The notes below the pieces were generated by a model. It did not search any database, was not told where the DNA came from, and saw nothing but the letters and a program-made list of their open reading frames with translations. The position numbers were made by a program, and so were the translations under genes. From NCBI GenBank assembly GCA_963723515.1, contig CAVRQT010000003.1, positions 288,001 through 352,000 of the forward strand: DNA of 64,000 bases, written 5' to 3'. The stretch comes from Vulcanimicrobiota bacterium. Lineage in GTDB: Bacteria; Vulcanimicrobiota; Vulcanimicrobiia; Vulcanimicrobiales; Vulcanimicrobiaceae. Numbering within the stretch: the first letter of the stretch is position 1; each line of letters opens with the position of its first letter. This document shows positions 2,777 to 53,670 of the stretch, in pieces.

Positions 2777-3007
2777 TGTCACACTGAGCTTGTCGAAGTG
2801 TGACTTGGAGTAAAACGTGCGTGGACACAGCCCCTTTGTCACACTGCGCTTGTCGAAGTCCCTGTGTCACACTGAGCTTACCGAAGGTCGCGGTGTCACA
2901 CTGAGCTTGTCGAAGTGTGACTTAGAGAAAATCGGGCGAAGAGAAGGTCCCGATGTCACTGCGCTTGTCGAAGTCCCTGTGTCACACTGAGCTTGTCGAA
3001 GTGTGAC
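2777..3007 (+). repeat. Left array: six forward copies of REP-like unit TGTCACACTGAGCTTGTCGAAGTGTGAC
   Basis: Copies start at 2777, 2837, 2865, 2894, 2954, 2980. Full copies (2777, 2894, 2980) have an 8-bp stem GTCACACT/AGTGTGAC around an 11-nt loop. Confidence 0.95.
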
Positions 3008-3284
3008 TTCGGCACAATTCGCGAATCGTCGCGAAGTCGCCGTTGATCAGCGCCGTCTTCTTATCGTGGCTCCAACCTTTGAGCTTCTTTTCGCATTGGA
3101 TGGCGTCCAGCACTTCGTGAAAATCTTGCGACCATACCAGCCGCACGGGCCTGCGGCCAAAAGTGTAACAGGTTGTGAAGGTGCCGTATTCGTGCTCGCC
3201 TACGCGTTTCTCAAGCTCGCTCGTGATCCCGATGTAGTATGTGCCATCCGAGCACAGCAACATGTAGACGTAATAGATTTTCAC
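2982..3284 (-). CDS. Stand-alone GIY-YIG nuclease (YhbQ/UPF0213-like), 100 aa
   Basis: YYVYML..DGTYYIGIT..LEKRVGEH..AIQCEKKLKGWS; the Tyr, Arg, His and Glu catalytic positions appear present. Confidence 0.9.
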   Translation of the reverse strand: MKIYYVYMLLCSDGTYYIGITSELEKRVGEHEYGTFTTCYTFGRRPVRLVWSQDFHEVLDAIQCEKKLKGWSHDKKTALINGDFATIRELCRSHTSTSSV

Positions 3285-3291
3285 ATGGCGA

Positions 3292-3582
3292 CATTACCGC
3301 TCGGTCACACTTCGACAAGCTCAGTGTGACACTGGGACCCTGCTCCGATGCCCCATTACCGCTCGGTCACACTTCGACAAGCTCAGTGTGACACTGGGAC
3401 CCTCCTCCGATGCCCCATTACCGCTCGGTCACACTTCGATGCTTCGACACTTCGGCATCGCTCAGTGCAGGCTATGCTCAGCACAGGCTCGCTCAGTGTG
3501 ACACAGGGACTTCCTGTAAGGCTCGATTACCGCTCGGCCACACTTCGACAAGCTCAGCGTGACACAATAGCTCAGTGTGACA
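3292..3582 (-). repeat. Right array: reverse-orientation copies of the same unit within 62-bp tandem repeats
   Basis: GTCACACTTCGACAAGCTCAGTGTGACA at 3304 and 3366, interrupted copy 3428-3503, variant at 3537, partial at 3569; tandem units start 3292, 3354, 3416. Confidence 0.95.
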
Positions 3583-6981: not shown

Positions 6982-7653
6982 GTGAAACGTGCGACCGGCC
7001 GGGAGTTGATGGACGATCCCGCCGAGTCGATTGCTGAACTCGAAGAGAACCTCCGCGACATCGAACGCGCAAATCGCTGGCTGGGAGGCATCGCTCCGGT
7101 ACGGTCGGCGGTTTTTTCTTTGGGCGCAGGCAGCGTGCTTGATGTAGGATGCGGAAGCGCCGATATTCCGCGCGCGCTCGTTGCTGCGGCGAGAAAGAAT
7201 GGCGGCGATCTTCACGTCACCTGTCTCGATTCCAGTTCGCAAATGCTTTCGATCGCAGAGGATCGTGCCAACGGCGAAACGGGCATACGGTTCTTGCAAG
7301 GTAACGGGATGGCGTTGCCGTTTCCCGACCGATCGTTCGATGTCGTCAGCTGCAATCTCGCGCTGCACCATTTTGAACCGGCGGCGGCGGTGAAACTGCT
7401 CGGTGAAATGCGTCGGGTTGCGCTGATCACGCCGATCGTTTGCGATCTCCGTCGCGCGCGGCTCGCGTACGCCGGCGCGGTGGTGCTCAGCCGGTTGTTT
7501 ACTCGCAATCGCTTTACGCGCCATGACGCGCCGCTCTCAGCGCGTCGCGCCTACACGCCGGCCGAAGCGTGTGAGCTTGCCCTTAAAGCCGGCTGGCGCA
7601 ATCCAACGGTGCATAAAAAAGCGTTCTATCGAATGCTGATGCTGGATGCCTAA
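6982..7653 (+). CDS. Class I SAM-dependent methyltransferase
   Basis: E.MDD N-terminus, VLDVGCGSAD, LALHHF, HDAPLSARRAYT. Confidence 0.88.
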   Translation: MKRATGRELMDDPAESIAELEENLRDIERANRWLGGIAPVRSAVFSLGAGSVLDVGCGSADIPRALVAAARKNGGDLHVTCLDSSSQMLSIAEDRANGETGIRFLQGNGMALPFPDRSFDVVSCNLALHHFEPAAAVKLLGEMRRVALITPIVCDLRRARLAYAGAVVLSRLFTRNRFTRHDAPLSARRAYTPAEACELALKAGWRNPTVHKKAFYRMLMLDA

Positions 7654-8814
7654 GGTTGCCGTCGTCGGCGGCGGCCCGGCGGGATCGATGTGTGCGACGC
7701 GATTGGCGGCTCGCGGCATTGACGTCACGCTGCTCGAACGAACCGCATTTCCGCGCACGAAAGTTTGCGGCGAGTATATCAATGCCGGTGCGCAAGAAGA
7801 GCTGATAGACACCGCAGTCGCAGACGAAATCCGCGCTGAGTGCAATCGAATTGCCGGCATTCGACTCCACGTCGATGGACTCGAACTTGAGCTGCCGTTT
7901 GGAGGCGAAGCGTGGGCAATCGCGCGCAGCCGCCTCGACGACATTTTGCTCGCAAACGCTCGGCGCGCAGGGGCGCAAACGATTACCGGGCGCGTTGAGG
8001 ATCTTGAACGAAACGGCGATCGAATCGGGGTCCGCTTCAGAGACGCTTCAGGATTAGAACATATGATTGACGCCGATGTTGTTGTCGGTGCAGACGGCCT
8101 TGGATCGCTCGTCGCGCGCAAATGCGGTCTCGCGTCGCCATCGAGCGGCGGCCGGTTTGCGATCGGCGGTCACTACAGCGGCTTCGGCGGCGCTCAACGG
8201 CTTTATTGAGATGTATGTAACGAAAGAGGCCTATTTCGCGATCAATCCGTTGAGCGATGAACTCGCAAACGTCATGATTGTCGTGGAACAGTCGTCGTTA
8301 CACGAATGGACCGGCGCTATCGATGCGAACATGGAGCATGTCTCGTTGCAACTGGCGGCCGGAAAACGAGCGATTGGCACGGTGCAACGCGTCGGCAAGC
8401 GCGTCGCGATCGGACCGCTCGCGCATAAGGTTCGCAGCGTCGCCCGGGAAAATGTATTTCTCGTCGGTGATGCCGCAGGGTTCATCGACCCATTCACCGG
8501 CCAAGGCGTTTTCCTCGCGTTACACACGCGCGAAGCTTGCCGCCGCAGCGATTGAAGCGCGCCTATCGGGAAAGGCGACCGCCGAGCAGTCGGCAGCGCA
8601 GTATCGTTCGCAACATCATCAGATCTTCGGCGCACGCGCTAGCTTAGCAACTCTCGTTTCCAAACTGGTCCGCACGCCGTGGCTGGCAAAGCGTGCGGCG
8701 CGCAACCTGCTGCGAAGCGCTGAATTACGTCGCTCTGTCATGGCCGCAATTGCCGGGCACGAGCGCGCGCCGGCAGGGCTCAATTCAACGATGCTTCTGA
8801 GACTCGTGGCCTGA
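7646..8814 (+). CDS. FAD-dependent oxidoreductase (geranylgeranyl reductase/halogenase-like); two apparent frameshifts
   Basis: VVGGGPAGS, FPRTKVCGE, GADG in one frame; LVGDAAGFIDPFTGQG in a second; C-terminus in a third. Confidence 0.8.
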
Positions 8815-10897: not shown

Positions 10898-12542
10898 CTA
10901 CCACGTTTTCATGCCCGGCGCCAAGAAGCCGGGATGTTGGAAAATATCGTAGAGCGGTCCGATATACGCGAGAATCGCCAGCCCGATGGCGACTGCTCCC
11001 CAGCGGAAGAGATGCTGAAGTAGAGCGGGTGTTGGCCGCGAGCCTTCCACCGGTTGCGCGAATTGCACGCTCATGTCTTCGAACTTTTCATTTCCCAGCG
11101 CTGTCCCGATTGCGATGACCGCGAACAGAATGATGCTGCAGAATAAGAAGAATCCGCCCGCCGCTGCGATCACCATCAACGGTTGCCACTGGTTCGCCGT
11201 CTGCGCGCCTAAGTAGCTGACCTCAGCGGTGCGTCGCGGTGCGCCCATCAATCCGGCCCAATGCATCGAAATCGACATAAAAAGCATCCCGTAAAACCAG
11301 ATTTTGGTCTGCACAACGGCCAAGTCGGGGCGCCACAGCGAGCGGCCGGTCAGCTTTGGAACCAGCCAATACGCCGCACCTAAGAATGTCAATGCAACCG
11401 GGCCGCCGACCGTAACGTGGAAGTGCCCGACGATCCAAACCGTGTTGTGCACGACGGTGTCCATGCTGTACGACGCATTGATGAGGCCGCCGAAGCCGCC
11501 CAGAATAAAGAGCATCATCCCATACGCAGCACCGCTGAACGCCGGATCCTTCCACGGCAAGCGATTTGACGGTTTCGACGAAGCCGCGGTTTCCACGCGC
11601 ACGCGCCGCTAGTTCAAAGGATGCGAAGACTGCGAATGCTGTGATGAAGGAGGGAATCGCAACGCCGTAGGTCGTCAGGGTGTGCAGCATCTTCCACTTC
11701 GTCGCAATATACGGCTCCATAAACTGGTGGTGGATGCCGACCGGCGTTGAGAGCAGCAGCAGCAGAATGAATGCGAGGCGCGTTAAGGCCGTCACTGAAC
11801 ACATATCCACCGTACCGCGTCGGAATGACGTTATACCAGATGATGTACGCGCCCATGATCCAGAAGTAGACCAGTGGGTGGCCAAAATACCAGAAGAGCA
11901 TGCGCGTCAGCATCACGTTGACGCCGCTCGTCCACCCGAATGCCCACGGAATCAGCAGTACATTTCGCCGACGACACCGAGCGTCGCGATGAACCACATC
12001 AAAAACGTCGTAGCACAGCCAAAGACGATCAGCGGCACGGGCGTGCCGGGATTGTTGCGCCTGAACCAGATGACGTTTGAAAGTATCTCGGCTCCGACAA
12101 TCCACGTGCCGAGAATCAGGATCGTCGCGCCGATGTAAAACCATGGGCTGGCTTTCAGCGGCGCGTAGAAGGTGTAGAGTACCGTCGCTTTTCCGGCTAA
12201 AATATTGACGGCGGCCATCGCGGTGCCCACGAGCATGACGCTCCAGCCGAGCCATCCCAAGAGCATCGAACGCTCTCTTGGGATCGAGCGATAGACCGCG
12301 AACAGCCCGAGGCCAGTGATGAAGAACGTCGTGAAGACGAGCGCCATCAAGACGCCATGCATCGTTAGAATGCGATAGTAATCGAACCACGGCGGCACCG
12401 CGATTACCGAAGCGCGCGAAAAGCCTTGAACCGCGCCAAAGACGGCGCCCAAGACGATGGCGGTGGTCGAAGTGTAAATGTGCGCCAGAACGACCCTGTT
12501 CTCGCGCAACACCTGCGGCTGTACTCTCGCAGAAGCGATCAT
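10898..12542 (-). CDS. cbaA: ba3-type (B-family) cytochrome c oxidase subunit I; several apparent frameshifts
   Basis: YYRILTMHG, LYTFYAPL, FWYFGHPLVY, GIHHQF, HNT.WIVGHFH, GAPRR across successive frames. Confidence 0.9.
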
Positions 12543-13006
12543 TGAACTTCTATGCTCGCGGACATGTTTTGGTGGCCGATGCCGCAGTACTCGTGACAGA
12601 GCAGCAGGTACGTGCCGCGCAACCGAAAGACGTGCGTCTGTGAATTGATCCACCCCGGCACCGCCATCATGTTGATGTCGGTGTGCGCCACCAGGAAACC
12701 GTGCACGACGTCGGGACTCGTAACATAGAACGTCACCTTGCTGCCCACCGGAACTTTCAGCACCGGTGGATTGAACGAGAAGACTTGTGCGACGTAGTAC
12801 GCCTCGTAGCTTCCGTCCGATAGTTTGCGTAGCCCCGGCTTATCGAATGGCGGCGTCTGCACGACCTTCGTCGGGTCGATGGCCTGCAAGCCGCTCGGGG
12901 GATTGATATTATCTTCAAATGCGGCGTACCCGATGATGGCGAGGAACAGCACGAGCATCGCGACGCCGAACGTCATCCACCACTTTTCGTAACGGTGGAT
13001 ATGCAT
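12539..13006 (-). CDS. cbaB: ba3-type cytochrome c oxidase subunit II (CuA)
   Basis: MHIHRYEKWW, single TM helix, SPDVVHGF, CHEYCGIGHQNM. Confidence 0.92.
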   Translation of the reverse strand: MHIHRYEKWWMTFGVAMLVLFLAIIGYAAFEDNINPPSGLQAIDPTKVVQTPPFDKPGLRKLSDGSYEAYYVAQVFSFNPPVLKVPVGSKVTFYVTSPDVVHGFLVAHTDINMMAVPGWINSQTHVFRLRGTYLLLCHEYCGIGHQNMSASIEVQ

Positions 13007-31086: not shown

Positions 31087-32123
31087 ATGATGACGGCGTT
31101 GCGCAAAGTCGCGCCCGAGCCGGGTTTCGCGCTTGAAGAGATACCGCTGCCGCAAATCGGTTCGACCGATGTTCTGATTCGCGTGCAGATGGCGGGCGTT
31201 TGCGGTACGGATCTGCACATCTACGAGTGGGATCGGTGGGCGCAACATCGCGTGCATCCGCCGCTCACTGTCGGCCATGAATTCATGGGCGTCGTGGCCG
31301 CCGTTGGTTCGGAGGTTGACGCATTTGCGCCCGGAGATCGCGTTTCGGCCGAGGGACACATTGCGTGCGGCGTATGCGCGCTCTGTCGCACCGGTGAAGC
31401 GCACATCTGCAAGGAACTACGCGTCATCGGAGTTGACCGCGACGGCGCCTTTGCGCAATACATCGCGATGCCGCAGCAAAACGTTTGGAAACTCGACGCC
31501 ACGATTCCCGATCAGTACGCCGCGATATTTGATCCGCTGGGAAACGCCGTGCATAGCGTCATGGCGGCGGGCGTGAGCGGAAAGAGCGTTGCGATTACCG
31601 GTGCCGGTTCAATAGGACTCATGGCGGTTTGTGTGGCGCGAGCGGCCGGTGCATCGTCGATCTTCGCGATTGACGTTCGACCGGAGAAGCTAGAGCTTGC
31701 GAAGCGGATTGGCGCCGACGAAACGTTCTTAGCCGGCGATGCGCATTGGATCGATAAGGTCCGCGACGCGCACTGATGGTCATGGGGTTGACGTGCTCCT
31801 TGAGATGTCCGGCAGCGCTGCAGCGATCGAGCAAGGGTTGACGGTCATGCGCAACGGCGGCCGAGCGGCATTGCTCGGTTTGCCGAATGAGAAGATCGAG
31901 CTCGATATCGCGGAGCTCGTGATTTTTAAAGGCGCTTACGCTGCTCGGCATCCATGGCCGAAGGATGTTCGAGACGTGGTATCAGATGCAACGCATGGTG
32001 AGAAATAAACGGATCGATCTCAAGCCGATCATCACGCACGTTTTGCCGCTGGAGTCGTTCGATGAGGCGTTCACGTTGCTCAAGTCCGGAAACGCGGCCA
32101 AGATCATCTTCGATCTGCGATGA
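31087..32123 (+). CDS. tdh: L-threonine 3-dehydrogenase; apparent frameshifts
   Basis: CGTDLHIYEWD, GHEF, CGVCALC..C, DPLGNAVH; adjacent to kbl. Confidence 0.9.
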
Positions 32124-33327
32124 ATGCCGAGTTTAACGCGCGCCTAGAAAAGGAGCTGGATGCGCTAAGAGCGGCCGGCACGTATAAACATCTGCGTCAT
32201 TTGACGACGCCGATGGCGCCAGAAGTTCACATGGAAGAAGCCGGCGACGTGATCGTGCTCTCCAGCAACAACTATCTCGGGCTCGCGGATCAACCGGAAG
32301 TGATTGAAGCGGGGATTGAAGGCCTGCGCAAGTACGGCGCGGGCACCGCATCGGTGCGGTTTATTTGCGGAACGTTCGACATACATCGCGTGCTGGAAGA
32401 GCGCATCGCTGAGTTTCTTTCAACGGAAGCGTCGCTCACGTACGTTTCGTGCTGGAATGCGAACACCGGCCTCTTTCCGACGATTGCGGAAGAAGGCGCC
32501 ACGCTGATTTCCGACGAGCTGAACCACGCATCGATCATCGACGGGTGCCGTTTAGCGACGAAAGCCAAGCGCGAGCGCTACAAGCACGGCGACATGCACG
32601 AGTTGGAAGAGAAGCTCAAAGCCGCGGATCCCGCGGGCCGAAAATCATCGTTACCGACGGCGTCTTTTCGATGGAAGGTTCGTTAGCGAAGCTGCCCGAG
32701 ATCGTCGAGTTGGCGAAGAAGCACAATGCGATTACAGTCGTCGACGATAGTCACGGAACCGGCGTCATGGGAAAAACGGGCCGCGGCACGATCGAGCACT
32801 ACGGGCTTGAGGGTCAGATCGACGTCATCACGGGTACGCTCGGCAAGGCGCTCGGTGGGGCGGCCGGCGGCTTTGTTGCCGGCAGCCGCGCGTTGATCGA
32901 CATGTTGATTCAAAGATCGCGCCCGCAATTGTTTTCAAATGCGCTTCCTGCGACGGTCGCTTGCAGCTCGTTAGCGGCCATCGAATACCTTGAAGCGCAT
33001 CCGGAGTTAATGGATCACTTGCGCGAGAAGATCGCGTATTTCCGAAGCGGTTTGCTGAAGCTCGGTTACGAACCGCTCGAGGGCGAAAGCGCCATCATCC
33101 CGATCATCGTCGGCGATACGGCGTTCGCAATCGCGCTCAGCGATAAATTGTTGCAGAAGGGCGTCTTTGTAACCGGATTCGGCTATCCGGTCGTGCCTGA
33201 AGGCACTGCGCGCATTCGGGTTCAGATGAGCGCGAAGTTGACGAAAGAAGAAATGGATCACGCGCTGGCGGCGTTTGACGAAGTCGGGCACGAAGTCGGC
33301 GTATTGAAACGGGGCGTCCCGGCGTAC
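32120..33327 (+). CDS. kbl: Glycine C-acetyltransferase; frameshift near 32635; expected stop reads TAC in this assembly
   Basis: SNNYLGL, ASVRFICGT, LNHASIIDG, DGVFSMEG, GTLGKALGG, ARIRVQMSA. Confidence 0.9.
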
Positions 33328-34205
33328 ACATATTCTAAAAGTCAGCGGCCATGGTACGCACGCAATGAAGATGCAGTAAGAACTGTAATCGGGCGCGGCA
33401 GTTGCTGCATTGGCGCGGTTGGCGCTGTTGGCTTTTTGCATACGCTCGTACCGGATCATTGGGCGCCGATCGCGGTGATGGCTCGGCGACAGGGATGGAT
33501 CGACCGGCAAACGATGGGCGCTGCTGCTACTCGCGGGTAGCGGCCATATCGTTTCGACGTTGATCCTCGGTGTGATCGTTTGGATCGCGGGAGTGGCACT
33601 CGCGGCGCGCTTTGGGCACGCTGTGAGCTTCGCATCGAGCCTTGGGCTTATCGCTTTTGGCGCTTGGATCGCGATCGCAGCGTGGCGGGAGCAACATGGC
33701 ACTTCCGCAGCGGCGAGACGCCCGAGCGCACGACCATCTACATCGGCATGCCGACGGAGTGGAGCACATTCATTGGCACGAACATTCCGATGCTGACTGG
33801 CACGCTACTGAAGGGAGCGCTGCGCTCGACGTACCGTTGCACGAGCACGAACATAAAGCATCGGGTCGCACGGCCTTGCTGCATGATCGTGGGATCATCT
33901 CCGATGATCGAGGGTATCCCGGCATTTTTCGCAGCGAGCCGTTACGGACCCACGCAGCTCGTGATGATGGCCGTTGTGTTTGGCGCTTCAACGATCGCAA
34001 CATATATTGTGATGTGCATGATTTCAAAGCGATAGCCTGCAGCGCTTTCGGCTTGCTTCCTTCGAACGATATGGTGAGGTGTTAAGCGGCATTGGTGATT
34101 GCTCTGCTGGGAGCTGGTCTTTTTGATTTTTCCTTTGCCTAAGTTGGCGGCTTTGACGAAGTCGGGCACGAAGTCGGCGTATTGAAGCGCGGAGTACCCG
34201 CCTAA
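33274..34205 (+). repeat. Direct repeat of the kbl 3' end (33274-33308 = 34152-34186, 35 bp identical, then synonymous variants)
   Basis: TTTGACGAAGTCGGGCACGAAGTCGGCGTATTGAA occurs twice. Confidence 0.95.
33365..34142 (+). CDS. Putative Ni/Co transporter-like membrane protein with His-rich loop; many apparent frameshifts
   Basis: GFLHTLVPDHWAP, GHIVST, HDHLHRHADGVEHIHWHEH, SSPMIEGIPAFF. Confidence 0.6.
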
Positions 34206-35802: not shown

Positions 35803-36255
35803 TTAAGCGGCGGGCTCAGTGGACGATTCACCGCAAGATGCTTGCTCAGAATGACTCGAGCAGCAGTCGCTTACGCCGCCGTCGCGAATTTCAGATTCTT
35901 CCAGCACGGTATACACCTCCCAACGGCGGCCGTCAGGATCGCTCGTCCACACCTTCGTTTGCTTGGCATAGCAACACGTTTCTTCACGTTCGATATCGAT
36001 GGGATAGCCGGCGTCTTTTAGACGCGCGATCGCGGTCATGACGGCGTCCGCATCATGCACTGCGATCCCATAGTGAGCGCTACCGACTGCTACGTTTCCG
36101 GAAGAGCGATTTAACGCAAGCTCGAGACCTGGATCGTCCGTCACGAAGAAGGCATAGTCATCGTAATGTTTGACCGGCGCACAGTGCAGCAAATTCTTGT
36201 AGAATGCGACCGCAACATCCAGATCGTGCGTCTGGAAGCTCAAGTGAATCTTCAT
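35803..36255 (-). CDS. ArsI/CadI-family VOC metalloenzyme
   Basis: MKIHLS, HYG, ETCCYAKQTKVW.SDPDG..WEVY. Confidence 0.88.
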   Translation of the reverse strand: MKIHLSFQTHDLDVAVAFYKNLLHCAPVKHYDDYAFFVTDDPGLELALNRSSGNVAVGSAHYGIAVHDADAVMTAIARLKDAGYPIDIEREETCCYAKQTKVWTSDPDGRRWEVYTVLEESEIRDGGVSDCCSSHSEQASCGESSTEPAA

Positions 36256-38475: not shown

Positions 38476-39162
<687 letters not shown>

Positions 39163-40803: not shown

Positions 40804-41460
40804 ATGCTAACGCGGCTGCTCGTCGTCGCGAACGTCATCGTCTTCATCTGGGAATATGTGACGGGCGCTTTTGGACCGCAATACGGCTACACCCAAGGCG
40901 GGCGGACCGTCGTCACTTACGACCCGATCGTCGCGCATGGCGCGATCTACGGACCGGCGATCTTCGGCAAGCACGAATATTGGCGCGTGATTTCGGGCGC
41001 GTTCTTGCATGGTGGAATCTTGCACATCGCCGTGAATATGTTTGCGCTTTGGCAAGTCGGCTCGGCCGTTGAAGCGATCATGGGAACGCCGCGTATGGCC
41101 GTCGTGTATTTCGGCTCGGCAATTGCGGCTGGATTCGCCGCCGCCTACTTCAACTATGGAGAGCCGGTCGTCGGTGCAAGCGGCGCAATTTTCGGCCTCT
41201 TCGGCGCGCTCGTTGCGATCGGCCTTCGCCATGGCACGCGCGGCAGATCCCTGATCGCACAAACGTTGCCGATCATCATTCTCAATCTGGTCATCGGCTT
41301 CTCGATTCCGCACATTGCCAATTCAGCGCATATCGGCGGACTGATCGCAGGATTCGCCTTTGGTTTCCTGATTTATCAGGTGCCGCGCCCGGTCCGAACG
41401 TATGTGACCGATGCGCAAACCGGTGAAGCGCTCGACTCACACCTTTACGAGCAGCGATGA
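40804..41460 (+). CDS. Rhomboid intramembrane serine protease
   Basis: WR, FLHGGILHIAVNM, GASGAIFG, AHIGG. Confidence 0.93.
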   Translation: MLTRLLVVANVIVFIWEYVTGAFGPQYGYTQGGRTVVTYDPIVAHGAIYGPAIFGKHEYWRVISGAFLHGGILHIAVNMFALWQVGSAVEAIMGTPRMAVVYFGSAIAAGFAAAYFNYGEPVVGASGAIFGLFGALVAIGLRHGTRGRSLIAQTLPIIILNLVIGFSIPHIANSAHIGGLIAGFAFGFLIYQVPRPVRTYVTDAQTGEALDSHLYEQR

Positions 41461-43350
41461 ACGCGATCGACGAAATCTTTGAAACCGGCGGGCCGATCGC
41501 GCACGCAATCCAGGGCTTTGAATCGCGTCCGGGCCAACTGCAAATGGCGCAGCTGATCGAACGTGGATTCTTGGAAGGCGTGCACACGATCGTTGAAGCC
41601 GGAACGGGCGTCGGCAAATCGCTGGCATATTTGATCCCGGCGCTGCGCAGCGGAAAGAAAGTCGTCGTTTCGACCGGCACGATTGCGCTCCAAGAGCAGC
41701 TCTTCAACAAAGACATTCCGCTCGTCACGCGGGCGCTCAACCAGTCGGCGCGCGTGACGGTCGTCAAAGGCCGCAACCACTATCTCTGCCGGCAGAAATT
41801 GGATCGCAGTCGCGGCGACCGCCTCATTGCGTCATCGCGGACGATGGCGCGGCTCTGGGAGTGGGGCGCAAAAACGGAGACGGGCGATCGCGCCGAGCTG
41901 TCCTTCGTTCCGCCGGCGCAAGAGTGGGAACAGCTCGACGCTGACGCCGACGATTGCGTCGGCGAATTTTGCGAGCACTTCCGCGAGTGTTTTTTCTTTA
42001 AGAAACGCGACGAAGCGAAGTACGCCGACCTGATCGTCGTCAACCACGCGCTGTTCTTCCTGGACTTAGCGATGGGCGGCGGTTTGCTGCCGCCGTACGA
42101 TTTCGTCGTGCTCGATGAGGCGCATCAATGCGAGCGGTGGGCGACAGCGGCCCTGACTGCGACCCTTTCGGGCGGTTCCATCGCGCGCATGCTGCGCAAG
42201 CTGCATCGCACGTACGAGCTGCCCTCCGATTTCGATGCCGAGTTCGACGAAGGGGTTCGCGCGCTGGAATCGACGTTGGCCCGCGTTCCCGGTGATCGCT
42301 ATCCCTTGGCGGCTAATGAAGACGTTTCGGAGCCGCTCGAGATGCTGCGCGCGACGCTCTACCGTTTGGAGAATTGGCTGTATGCGCATTGGGATCGCGC
42401 GTTGCGCCGGCGGCCTGACAACGATGCCGAAGGCGAACGCCGTCGCGATCTTGCGATGCGCTCGATCCTCGCGCACCTCGGTACGATCGAGCGCGCGAAG
42501 TTTTCTGATGAACAGTCGATCGCGTGGGTTGAGCGCGGCGAAGGCGACGGACGCTACCAGATCAACAGCGCACCCTACGACGTCGGCGCGTTCTTGCAGG
42601 CGACACTCTTCGACCGCACGCCGAGCGTCGTGCTGACCAGCGCGACGATCGCTACTGGCCGTTCATTTGAATTCTTGCGGCGGACGCTTGGACTTGTGGA
42701 AGCGCAGGAGTTGATTGCGCTCTCGCCATTTGAGTATCGGCAACAAGCGCGGCTCTTCATTGCACCTCCCCAATTGAATCCGAAGGCGCCCGATTTTGCG
42801 GTTCGCGCCGCACCGCTCGTCGAAGAGTGTCTCGACCGTTCCCGAGGCCGTGCTTTTGTGCTCTTTACATCGTACGCAAGATTGCGCGAAATCTACGCGC
42901 TTGTGCGGGAACGGATTCCTTATCCGACGCGAATGCAAGGCGAACTGCCGCGAACGCATTTGCTCGAATGGTTTCGAACGACGCCGCATGCGGTGCTCTT
43001 CGCCACGAATACATTTTGGGAAGGCATCGATGTCGCCGGAGAGCAGCTCTCGTGCGTCATCGTCGATCGGCTTCCATTTCCCTCGCCTGGGGATCCGTTG
43101 GTCGCCGCTCGCCTAGCTTCCATCGAAGCGCGAAGGCCGGAGCAGCTTCGAAGATTACATGATTCCATCGGCAACAATGCGCCTAAAACAGGGCTTCGGC
43201 CGGCTAATCCGTGCGAAGACCGATCGCGGATTGCTCGTTTGTCTCGATGGCCGCGCGGGTGCGTCGCGTTACGGGCACACGATCATCGACGCGCTGCCGC
43301 CCGCGCGACGGATCGCGCAGCTCGAAGAGCTCGACGGTTTCTTTTCGTAA
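41457..43350 (+). CDS. DinG/YoaA-family Fe-S helicase; apparent frameshift near 43135
   Basis: EAGTGVGKS, KGRNHYLC, DEAH, FWEGID, then LKQGFGRLIR in the next frame. Confidence 0.9.
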
Positions 43351-43364
43351 GAAAGCCAGTCGCG

Positions 43365-45320
43365 CTAATCTTCCTTGGCCGCCTCGAGTTCGGCGCGCTC
43401 TTGCAATTCTTTAACGACGGCTGAATCGGCCAAGGTCGTCGTATCGCCGAGCATCCTGCCTTCGGCGATGTCGCGCAACAGCCGGCGCATGATTTTGCCG
43501 CTGCGCGTCTTGGGCAGTTCGTGCGTGAACGTCAAATATTTCGGTGTCGTGAATTTGCCGAGCCGCGTGCCGACGTGGGCTCGCAGTTCGTCAGCGAGTT
43601 CTTTGTTGCCGGCGGCGCCGCCACGCAAGCAAACGAACGCGCAGATCGCCTGTCCCGTCAGATCATCGAGCTTTCCAACGACTGCCGCTTCGGCGACTGT
43701 CGGATGTTCGACAAGCGAACTTTCGACTTCGGTCGTCGAGATGCGATGGCCGCTGATGTTCATGACGTCGTCGATACGCCCCATAAACCAATAATTGCCG
43801 TCCTGATCGCGGCGACAACCGTCGCCCGCGAGATACTTGTGCGGAAATCGCGACCAATAGGTTTGCTTGTACCGCTCGTCATCGCCCCAAATCCCGCGCA
43901 GCATCGAAGGCCACGGACGTGTTAAGACGAGATAGCCGCCGCCGCCCGGCGGAACGCTTTCCCCTTGATCGTTGACGACGTCCGCAAACGTGCCGGGAAG
44001 CGGCTTTGTCGCACTGCCGGGTAAGGTCGTCGTCGCTCCGGGCAGCGGACTAATCATGATGGAACCGGTTTCCGTTTGCCACCATGTGTCAACGACGGGA
44101 CAACGGCCGCCGCCGATGTGCTCGCGATACCACATCCAGGCTTCCGGATTGATCGGCTCACCGACGGAGCCGAGCAAACGCAGCGACGAAAGATCGTGCT
44201 TTGCCGGAAATTCGGCGCCCCATCGCATGAACGTGCGAATGGCGGTCGGCGCCGTATAGAGGATCGTAACCTTGTAGCGCTCGATGATCGACCAGAGCCG
44301 GTCGCGCTCCGGAAAATCCGGTGTTCCTTCGTAGATCACCGACGTCGCACCGTTGCAAAGCGGGCCGTAGACGATGTAGGAGTGCCCGGTCACCCAGCCG
44401 ATGTCCGCGGCACACCAATAGACATCCTCATCTTTCAGATCGAAGACGAGCCTGTGCGTCATGGCGACTTCCGTCAAATAGCCGCCGGTCGTGTGCTTGA
44501 TGCCCTTCGGTTTGGCCGTCGTGCCACTCGTATATAAGAGGTAGAGCAAGTCTTCGGCATTCATCGTCTCGGGCGAACACTCGGCCGGCTGATCCTTGAT
44601 GACATCGTCCCACCACAGGTCGCGGCCTGAACGCATCTCGATGCGATCGCCGACGCGCTTCGCGACGATGCAGTACTTGATGGAGGGCGTGCTCTGCATC
44701 GCGATATCGCAGTTGTCCTTGAGCGCAATCTTGTTGCCGCGTCGCCATCCTTGATCGGCCGTAATGAGGGCAACGCACTGCGAATCGTTCACCCGATCGA
44801 CGATCGAGTCGGGCGAAAAACCACCGAAGATCACCGAGTGCGGCGCGCCGATGCGCGCGCAAGCCAGCATTGCGACCGGCAATTCGGGGATCATCGGCAT
44901 GTAAATCGCGATACGGTCGCCTTTTCGAATCCCGAGTTTGCGCAATCCGTTCGCAAAGCGGCACACGTCTTCAAGCAGGTGACGGTAGGTGATCGTACGC
45001 CGGTCGCCGGGTTCGCCTTCGTAGTAGTAAGCGATGCGTTCGCCTTTGCCGGCGGCGACGTGCCTGTCCAGGCAGTTGGTCGATGCGTTCAGTTGGCCGT
45101 CCGCGAACCACTTCGCGAAGGGCTCATCCCATTCAAGAACTTTCGTGAACGGTTTGATCCACTCGAGCTTGCGCGCCCAAGCCGCCCAGAAGGCTTCGAT
45201 GTCCTGCTCCGCCTTTTCATAAATGTCGGGCTGCGCATTCGCGTGCGCGGCAAATTCGGTCGGCGGCGGAAAACGGCGCTGCTCGTCTGAGAGCGCCTCG
45301 ATCGCATCGAGCGTCTTCAT
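43365..45320 (-). CDS. acs: Acetyl-CoA synthetase
   Basis: YTSGTTAKPKG, DTWWQTETG, PKTRSGKIMRR. Confidence 0.95.
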   Translation of the reverse strand: MKTLDAIEALSDEQRRFPPPTEFAAHANAQPDIYEKAEQDIEAFWAAWARKLEWIKPFTKVLEWDEPFAKWFADGQLNASTNCLDRHVAAGKGERIAYYYEGEPGDRRTITYRHLLEDVCRFANGLRKLGIRKGDRIAIYMPMIPELPVAMLACARIGAPHSVIFGGFSPDSIVDRVNDSQCVALITADQGWRRGNKIALKDNCDIAMQSTPSIKYCIVAKRVGDRIEMRSGRDLWWDDVIKDQPAECSPETMNAEDLLYLLYTSGTTAKPKGIKHTTGGYLTEVAMTHRLVFDLKDEDVYWCAADIGWVTGHSYIVYGPLCNGATSVIYEGTPDFPERDRLWSIIERYKVTILYTAPTAIRTFMRWGAEFPAKHDLSSLRLLGSVGEPINPEAWMWYREHIGGGRCPVVDTWWQTETGSIMISPLPGATTTLPGSATKPLPGTFADVVNDQGESVPPGGGGYLVLTRPWPSMLRGIWGDDERYKQTYWSRFPHKYLAGDGCRRDQDGNYWFMGRIDDVMNISGHRISTTEVESSLVEHPTVAEAAVVGKLDDLTGQAICAFVCLRGGAAGNKELADELRAHVGTRLGKFTTPKYLTFTHELPKTRSGKIMRRLLRDIAEGRMLGDTTTLADSAVVKELQERAELEAAKED

Positions 45321-53414: not shown

Positions 53415-53670
53415 TGTCACGCTGCGCGTAGCCTGCCCTGAGCAGCGTCGAAGCGTCGAAGCATCGAAGCACAGCGATAATCGAGCTATTCAGTGTGCTC
53501 GTGTGTCACGCCAAGTTTGTTCGGTTCGCGATTCCTGTCACGCTGAGCTTGTCGAAGCGCCGCGATAATCGTAATTAGCGTCATTATTTCCGAGCATCTC
53601 AATCAGCACGATCACGGTGCTCGACAAGCTAGTCGACAGACAGCTCAGCGTGAGATTCGATAGCTCAGTA
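53415..53670. repeat. Second cluster of the same REP-like family, with no nuclease gene
   Basis: TGTCACGCTGAGCTTGTCGAAGCG at 53536; nested variant at 53415-53470; degenerate reverse copies about 53617-53670. Confidence 0.85.

What the first reader, a model, noticed from the sequence alone, without database searches (positions are those of the whole stretch)
3428..3503. Repeat variants nested twice inside the repeat at the same position
Seen: this copy parses as GTCACACTTCGA[TGCTTCGA[CACTTCGGCATCGCTCAGTG-CAGG]CTATGCTCAGCA-CAGG]CTCGCTCAGTGTGACA. Removing each 24-bp insert restores a unit of form stem-TTCG(A/G)-N3/4-GCTCA-stem. Both inserts sit directly after TTCGA, end in CAGG and have their own complementary stems (TGC/GCA, CAC/GTG). 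Inference: site-specific insertion of repeat units into the loop of existing units, which would mark the cut site of the mobilising enzyme. Simple slippage would not easily give different compensated stems.
Basis: partly seen in the sequence, partly recalled or inferred. Interest (0 to 1): 0.75.

Follow-up and report, generated by a model that had tools for sequence, protein, structure and literature searches.

The report
Tiny hairpin modules nesting inside repeats
Two 24-base DNA hairpin modules sit one inside the other within a repeat beside a small DNA-cutting enzyme gene; such modules occur in many bacteria and the enzyme is a testable candidate for moving them.

Summary
The double nest at 3428-3503 is real. 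It lies in a hairpin-repeat array that flanks, in inverted orientation, a 100-aa single-domain GIY-YIG nuclease gene (2982-3284). A third module at 53432-53455 sits at the same loop position. Nested stems pair in nested order (22 of 48, against 1 swapped). In two genes the nests add exactly 16 and 24 residues. These are insertions of discrete modules, not slippage. The module's ends are fixed; its target is not: the window's site is used in 31 of 74 nests, six other positions in 43, and modules also land outside repeats, mostly after a purine (90 of 103). So the site is preferred and lineage-dependent, not a proven cut site; the characterised relative SsnA cuts outside its hairpin. Closest known: Nostoc SDR elements (nesting recalled, paper not held) and Ssn nucleases (membership not met). 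The added point is the breadth and a candidate enzyme, which is untested.

The parts
3448..3471 (-). Inner 24-nt module: CCTG tag, 3-bp stem CAC/GTG, TGAGC, 4-nt loop, CCGAA (read on the - strand)
3440..3487 (-). Middle 24-nt module (3440-3447 + 3472-3487), stem TGC/GCA, interrupted by the inner module immediately 5' of TCGAA on the - strand
3428..3503 (-). Outer GTCA-tagged repeat unit (3428-3439 + 3488-3503) holding both modules
3304..3581 (-). Repeat cluster upstream of the nuclease gene: intact units 3304-3330 and 3366-3392 (in a 62-bp tandem duplication), the nested unit, a unit at 3537-3563 and a half unit at 3570-3581
2982..3284 (-). 100-aa single-domain GIY-YIG nuclease gene; Y7, Y17, R27, H31, E65 present and conserved; its last codons run into a repeat unit
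   Evidence: Pfam PF01541 E 2.4e-14; alignment; nearest solved structures UPF0213 1zg2 and 1ywl
2778..3007 (+). Repeat cluster downstream of the gene, six units in the opposite orientation
53416..53471 (+). Second, degenerate nested unit between ppx and an ABC-transporter operon; 24-nt CCTG module at 53432-53455 immediately 5' of TCGAA, with one extra 8-nt right arm
53537..53559 (+). Solo GTCA-tagged unit near the second nest

Best explanation
The window holds a REP-like element: a small GIY-YIG nuclease gene flanked by inverted arrays of GTCA-tagged hairpin units. One unit has received two successive insertions of a related 24-nt mobile module (4-nt CYTG tag, 3-bp stem, TGAGC, 4-nt loop, YCGAA, 3-bp stem). 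Shown: the module is a discrete unit with fixed ends, it comes from a template other than the unit it lands in, and it inserts at several positions of the unpaired loop of existing units and at unrelated sites, mostly after a purine. Inferred: the module travels as a short single-stranded DNA hairpin whose 5' end is cut a fixed distance before the stem and whose 3' end is set by the stem base; it is captured by host repair at single-strand breaks, which are commonest where the nuclease binds, that is at extruded repeat hairpins. The adjacent GIY-YIG clade, acting in trans, is the most likely source of those breaks. Because a 24-nt insertion rebuilds a new target and keeps reading frames, nests and tandem runs accumulate.
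For: Compensated stems: inner stem fully Watson-Crick at its two free positions in 45 of 74 nests, against a permutation mean of 14.7 and maximum of 25 in 10,000; among 48 nests with different inner and outer stems, both pair in nested order in 22 and in swapped order in 1. Filled against empty sites: a triple nest adds exactly 24 residues to a LeuC-type protein relative to 4nqy (L051); a double module adds 16 residues relative to the median of 120 HI0933-family homologues, in which 7-8-residue inserts of the same peptide type occur at four other positions. Loop targeting: the plain unit folds with an 8-bp stem and an 11-nt open loop; 53 of 103 removed modules lay in that loop, 8 at stems or edges; the base 5' of the insert is a purine in 90 of 103. 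Nuclease link: window gene flanked on both sides; units within 600 bp of homologues in L001 (3), L012 (8), L069 (1) and within 500 bp in L111 (5); none beside two YazA-type genes; 33 of 164 homologous proteins carry a repeat-encoded 5-mer against a shuffled mean of 7.2, maximum 17. SsnA shows that such a 94-aa protein binds and cuts tagged ssDNA hairpins (PMC11893778).
Against: No activity was tested. Only 3 of 122 nest loci hold a GIY-YIG gene (42 loci are under 700 bp). Homologues end mostly in GTCA-type repeat peptides (26 of 164) and rarely in CYTG-module peptides (5 of 164; hand-picked motif lists, no control), so the gene is tied to the parent repeat more than to the module. Two homologues (L002, L132) have no unit of this type nearby. 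SsnA cuts 5 nt 5' of its GTCA tag (my reading), which matches neither the module's 5' end nor the loop site. GIY-YIG enzymes are hydrolytic and form no covalent intermediate (established knowledge), so joining must come from elsewhere. The isolated 24-mer folds no better than shuffles (z -0.16 and 0.34). 12 of the 74 nests imply 25-nt modules or longer loops, and 14 of 88 clean nests were of other lengths and were dropped. The loop counts are inflated by the scan pattern; among modules over 300 bp from a seed nest only 1 of 7 was in a loop.
Confidence: 0.55

Rival explanations
1. One reading: a single site-specific insertion point next to TTCGA marks the cut of the mobilising enzyme.
For: 3 of 3 modules in the window use that site; it is the commonest site overall (31 of 74) and in Planctomycetota (5 of 6). 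Different homologues could each have their own fixed site, as SsnA homologues cut at slightly different positions.
Against: Six other positions in 43 of 74; different positions within single nests (L033, L048, L051, L088, L089); 40 of 103 modules in no unit; SsnA cuts outside the hairpin. Boundaries can slide by 1 nt or more in most events, which blurs but does not merge the peaks at 0, 2 and 3-5.
Confidence: 0.12
2. The modules are moved by another enzyme in trans (an HUH tyrosine transposase of the RAYT/IS200 kind, possibly through a 24-nt dumbbell circle, or a reverse transcriptase copying a processed RNA hairpin); the GIY-YIG protein serves only the GTCA-tagged parent repeats.
For: Exact ends, a 4-nt tag 5' of a stem and insertion without a long target duplication are HUH-like (established knowledge). 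The last base of the module equals the base before the insertion in 74 of 101 events (permutation mean 49.5), as strand exchange at a shared base might give, though within the TCC stem class the effect is weak (p 0.06). Nuclease genes are rarely next to CYTG modules.
Against: No Y1 transposase or reverse transcriptase among 141 ORFs chosen near 79 nest loci or 84 window ORFs; this is weak, because the selection also missed the L069 nuclease and a trans factor need not be near. CGTC-type repeats were reported not to be associated with transposase genes (PMC3733652). The module shares its whole core with the nuclease-flanking unit.
Confidence: 0.27
3. Local slippage or hairpin-templated strand switching: separate 8-nt and 16-nt duplications of the two arms, later corrected to pair.
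For: The right arm is a run of 8-nt near-repeats; the second locus has an unpaired extra 8-nt arm; inner stem equals outer stem in 26 of 74 nests; tandem runs of identical modules exist.
Against: 48 of 74 nests have a different inner stem, pairing in nested order (22 against 1); the CCTG tag is absent from the outer unit of the window; clean 8-, 16- and 24-residue inserts appear in genes with no pre-existing repeat.
Confidence: 0.04
4. Assembly or base-calling artefact.
For: Several window genes appear split (COX1, aminotransferase, FAD-binding); no reads were seen.
Against: A second module at the same site 50 kb away; the same architecture in isolate genomes such as Sphaerospermopsis NIES-73, Nostoc spongiaeforme, Aquimarina rubra and Bizionia arctica.
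Confidence: 0.02

Closest known systems
Small dispersed repeats (SDR) of Nostocaceae, Elhai et al. 2008, Genome Res 18:1484 (PMC2527708; not held)
   Same: Recalled, not read: 21-27-nt mobile repeats, some with a conserved stem-loop, lying in heptamer tandem repeats, with SDR1 and SDR4 nesting in copies of themselves. Seen here: the 24-nt module is in Nostoc punctiforme PCC 73102 plasmid pNPUN02, in heptamer-type runs (L048, L126) and in deep nests in Nostoc. Citing papers confirm the paper and the precise insertion of SDR5 in HIP1.
   Different: I could not compare sequences, so identity with SDR4 or a sister family is unproven. The module here is found in 20 named phyla, 28 of 122 loci cyanobacterial, and beside a candidate nuclease; I recall no enzyme assigned to SDRs.
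Ssn nucleases with NTS/SRM repeats (cd10448; PMC11893778)
   Same: About 100-aa single-domain GIY-YIG gene flanked by inverted, GTCA-tagged hairpin repeats; catalytic Tyr, Tyr, Glu at matching positions; the authors raise the hypothesis of a domesticated mobile element.
   Different: The SRM pattern has 0 matches in the window; the protein is 37-39% identical to SRM-flanked proteins and 40-79% to the 19 other members of its own group; the repeat core is an open loop, not a perfect palindrome; the word 'nested' does not occur in the main text.
CGTC-tagged REPs (PMC3733652)
   Same: TGTC/CGTC tag 5' of a stem-loop, dimers and clusters, intragenic copies, no dedicated transposase.
   Different: Described stems are 8-9 bp with 4-5-nt loops; I saw passages only and not the consensus figure, so I cannot say whether this family is among the four.
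REPtrons / REPINs (RAYT with GTAG REPs)
   Same: Small gene flanked by inverted tagged hairpins that are also dispersed in the genome.
   Different: The gene is a GIY-YIG nuclease, not an HUH tyrosine transposase; tag is GTCA or CCTG.
UPF0213 / YazA / YhbQ (Slx1-related GIY-YIG proteins)
   Same: Nearest solved structures by sequence (1zg2 E 9.3e-11, 1ywl E 7.6e-10); family link to Slx1 in PMC7017083 (one passage).
   Different: YazA-type genes sit between trmN and rsmI with no repeats; identity 35-40%.

Membership tests
Ssn (cd10448) | Single-domain GIY-YIG protein of about 100 aa with catalytic Tyr/Tyr/Glu | tested here: met
Ssn (cd10448) | Gene flanked on both sides by tagged hairpin repeats | tested here: met
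Ssn (cd10448) | Flanking repeats fit the SRM pattern | tested here: not met
   0 matches in the window; the same pattern finds 1 and 2 matches beside L130 and L131
Ssn (cd10448) | Falls in the Ssn clade | tested here: not met
   AU test p 0.025 against grouping with L130, L131, L133. Caveats: those rows are proxies chosen by SRM flanks or look, not SsnA itself; groups were named after the first tree was seen; two long rows were dropped; 25 rows only
Ssn (cd10448) | Best CDD match is cd10448 | not testable with these tools
   no CDD library; NCBIfam gave no family
Ssn (cd10448) | Sequence-specific cleavage of ssDNA only | not testable with these tools
   needs an assay
SDR elements | 21-27 nt dispersed repeat with fixed ends (recalled) | tested here: met
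   24 nt
SDR elements | Stem supported by compensatory changes (recalled) | tested here: met
SDR elements | Nests in copies of itself; lies in heptamer repeats in Nostoc (recalled) | tested here: met
SDR elements | Sequence matches a published SDR consensus | not testable with these tools
   paper not held; citing papers give no consensus in the passages seen
REPtron (RAYT) | HUH Y1 transposase gene between the repeats | tested here: not met
   the gene is PF01541 only
YazA/YhbQ housekeeping group | trmN-yazA-rsmI context and clade | tested here: not met
   neighbours are a thioredoxin-like gene and a Clp ATPase; AU p 0.013 with the same caveats
Rfam RNA families | Match at gathering score | tested here: not met
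   0 matches in the window

The most novel reading that the evidence does not exclude
A sister clade of the Ssn nucleases and a 24-nt hairpin form a minimal transposition system across the bacterial domain: the nuclease releases the module as single-stranded DNA (perhaps a dumbbell circle in which the 4-nt tag closes the second loop) and also opens the target, and host ligation completes the move. It would be the missing enzyme for the very small mobile repeats of Nostoc and a standing source of in-frame 8-residue insertions in proteins of many phyla.
Probability: 0.25. Interest if true: 0.85.

Novelty: new variant of a known kind. Interest (0 to 1): 0.55.

Why it matters
How 21-27-nt elements move has had no assigned enzyme as far as I recall or could find, and the in vivo link between small GIY-YIG nucleases and the spread of their repeats is a hypothesis in the Ssn paper. 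This locus joins the two: a self-nesting 24-nt module sharing its core with repeats that flank an intact nuclease outside the SRM-defined group. It names a protein and substrates for a direct assay, shows the module far beyond cyanobacteria, and explains in-frame 8n-residue insertions in housekeeping proteins. It might also give an ssDNA nuclease with a new specificity. The nesting phenomenon itself is probably already described.

Tried and rejected
BLAST of the nested 76-mer against plasmids: no record covering 80%. DNA-level empty sites for three plasmid modules: none found. Two orthologous Nostoc efp-upstream regions carry different nests and give no clean empty allele. SOD (L065) and RibD (L011) against solved structures gave no clean multiple of 8 residues: SOD has about 11 extra at the nest, so not every nest is a pure addition. 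Search for opposite-orientation nests found one composite case (L018), but the loci were selected for same-strand nests, so strand preference is not established. Rfam: none. NCBIfam: none. Promoter/terminator scan: at chance level. Phage collection: only distant GIY-YIG proteins, not followed. The Atlas look-alike search gave no result. Folding of the lone 24-mer is not better than shuffles. Literature searches found no paper linking this repeat or nesting to a GIY-YIG protein; the library lacks most subscription papers and the SDR paper. No structure prediction or complex job was run. Viral and metagenome contig collections stayed unchecked.

Full report
Observation. By analogy with tagged REPs the - strand is the natural reading: tag, 3-bp stem, TGAGC, loop, TCGAA, stem. 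Outer units carry the tag GTCA and modules the tag CCTG at the same distance from TGAGC. The module core has 2 exact matches in the window against 0.01 by chance; the second, at 53432-53455, is nested at the same position in a degenerate unit. Removing both modules from the first nest leaves a loop unlike the 9 intact units listed, so there is no exact empty copy next door.

Surroundings. The nest belongs to a repeat cluster at 3304-3581. A second cluster in opposite orientation lies at 2778-3007. Between them is a 100-aa GIY-YIG gene (PF01541, E 2.4e-14) with conserved Y7, Y17, R27, H31 and E65. The whole lies between a thioredoxin-like gene and a Clp ATPase gene. Close homologues end in the same repeat-encoded peptide. 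33 of 164 homologues hold a repeat-encoded 5-mer against a shuffled mean of 7.2; some of these are chance matches. A Sphingomonas homologue is flanked by the same core with covarying stems.

Test on other genomes. The one scan of GTDB genomes used a pattern for a hairpin inside a hairpin with 0-25 free bases on each side, so the position within the loop was free, but sites outside the loop, opposite-strand nests and 3-nt inner loops could not be seen. After dropping one overlapping locus, 88 clean single nests remained; 74 had a length fitting a 24-25-nt insert and 14 were dropped. Bases of outer loop left 3' of the insert: 0 in 31 (the window's site), 1 in 3, 2 in 16, 3 in 10, 4 in 8, 5 in 5, 6 in 1. 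With one nest per genome the site is still preferred (27 of 66, p 2.7e-6; genomes are not independent), but it depends on lineage: Planctomycetota 5 of 6, Chloroflexota 8 of 17, Cyanobacteriota 10 of 21, Bacteroidota 0 of 11. Tags were CCTG in 26 and CTTG in 17 of 74. Stems covary (45 of 74 fully paired, permutation mean 14.7); of 48 nests with unlike stems, 22 pair in nested order and 1 in swapped order.

Iterative removal of 103 CYTG modules (101 in the loci, 2 in the window) placed 53 in the region predicted to be unpaired, 8 at stems or edges, 40 in no unit and 2 near an opposite-strand unit; the base before the insert was a purine in 90. Of 7 modules over 300 bp from a seed nest, 1 was in a loop. 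The module's last base equals the preceding base in 74 of 101, so boundaries are uncertain by about 1 nt; this may be a stem-class effect.

Filled and empty sites. A triple nest adds exactly 24 residues to a LeuC-type protein. A double module adds 16 residues to an HI0933-family protein, and among 120 homologues 80 insertions of 5 or more residues occur in 54 proteins at 14 intervals, among them 7-8-residue inserts of the module's peptide type at four other positions (typed by eye from peptides, no DNA seen). Two other cases were not clean and three DNA searches for empty sites failed.

Mechanism. Shown: discrete module, fixed ends, foreign template, several targets with a bias to repeat loops and to purines. 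Inferred: a single-stranded intermediate captured at breaks, with the GIY-YIG clade as the likely source of the breaks. Against: only 3 of 122 nest loci hold such a gene, the genes are flanked mainly by GTCA-type units, and SsnA cuts 5 nt 5' of its tag with the loop dispensable. No HUH transposase or reverse transcriptase was seen among 141 ORFs near 79 loci or 84 window ORFs, a weak negative. The window is 64 kb of a contig of about 1.08 Mb, so a trans factor elsewhere is unchecked.

Comparison. The gene-and-repeat layout works like Ssn/NTS but fails two membership tests: no SRM match and a tree test against proxy members (p 0.025, with the caveats given). The module fits what I recall of the SDR elements of Nostoc, including self-nesting, and is present in N. 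punctiforme PCC 73102, but that paper was not held and no sequence comparison was made.

What I saw of each paper. PMC11893778: parts 1-5 of 11 of the text, keyword passages, and a keyword search of 12 of 14 supplements; the two unsearched files and the figures may bear on whether this repeat was noted. PMC3733652: passages. PMC3116915, PMC5861425, PMC2884548, PMC4390886, PMC7017083: passages. PMC3184786: keyword search with no hits. Elhai et al. 2008: nothing but its citation and two sentences about SDR5 in citing papers; the rest is recalled. The labels cd10456 and SDR1/SDR4 are recalled.

Verdict. The insertion reading holds; the single-cut-site reading does not. Nested tiny repeats are probably known from Nostoc; the spread over many phyla and the adjacent non-SRM GIY-YIG gene as candidate enzyme are the additions. 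New variant of a known kind, interest 0.55.

Noticed in passing
window 2853-2877, 2968-2992 and 3491-3514: In the downstream array a unit is cut short in its right stem and the next unit begins 6 nt 5' of its GTCA tag, close to the 5-nt distance at which SsnA cuts; the same junction recurs, so it is probably one event copied.
   Followed up: no
window 3296-3419: 62-bp tandem duplication holding two intact units, one mismatch apart.
   Followed up: partly
window 10898-12653, 7646-8814, 32120-33540, 41457-43424: COX1, an FAD-binding gene, an aminotransferase and a helicase appear split or shortened, suggesting indel errors in the assembly.
   Followed up: no
window 38579-39157 (-): Stand-alone PD-(D/E)XK endonuclease (PF11645, E 4.2e-51).
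   Followed up: no
window 53620-53668 and 35814-35856: Degenerate half units of the same repeat family.
   Followed up: no
L012:1260-1420; L065:9665-10345; proteins P0165-P0284: Other tiny palindromic elements sit in the loops of these units and in genes, giving recurring 6-, 8-, 10- and 11-residue inserts in Patescibacteria-type proteins: a wider set of very small insertions.
   Followed up: partly
L128:1743-3110: An IS91-type transposase gene on a Trichlorobacter lovleyi plasmid, beside qacEdelta1 and sul1, carries two in-frame modules; 15 places in that plasmid match it.
   Followed up: partly
L018, L024, L049, L123 (seed matches): A shorter nest type in which a 20-nt untagged hairpin replaces the outer loop.
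   Followed up: no
L033 and L039, upstream of efp: Orthologous sites in two Nostoc genomes hold different deep nests.
   Followed up: partly
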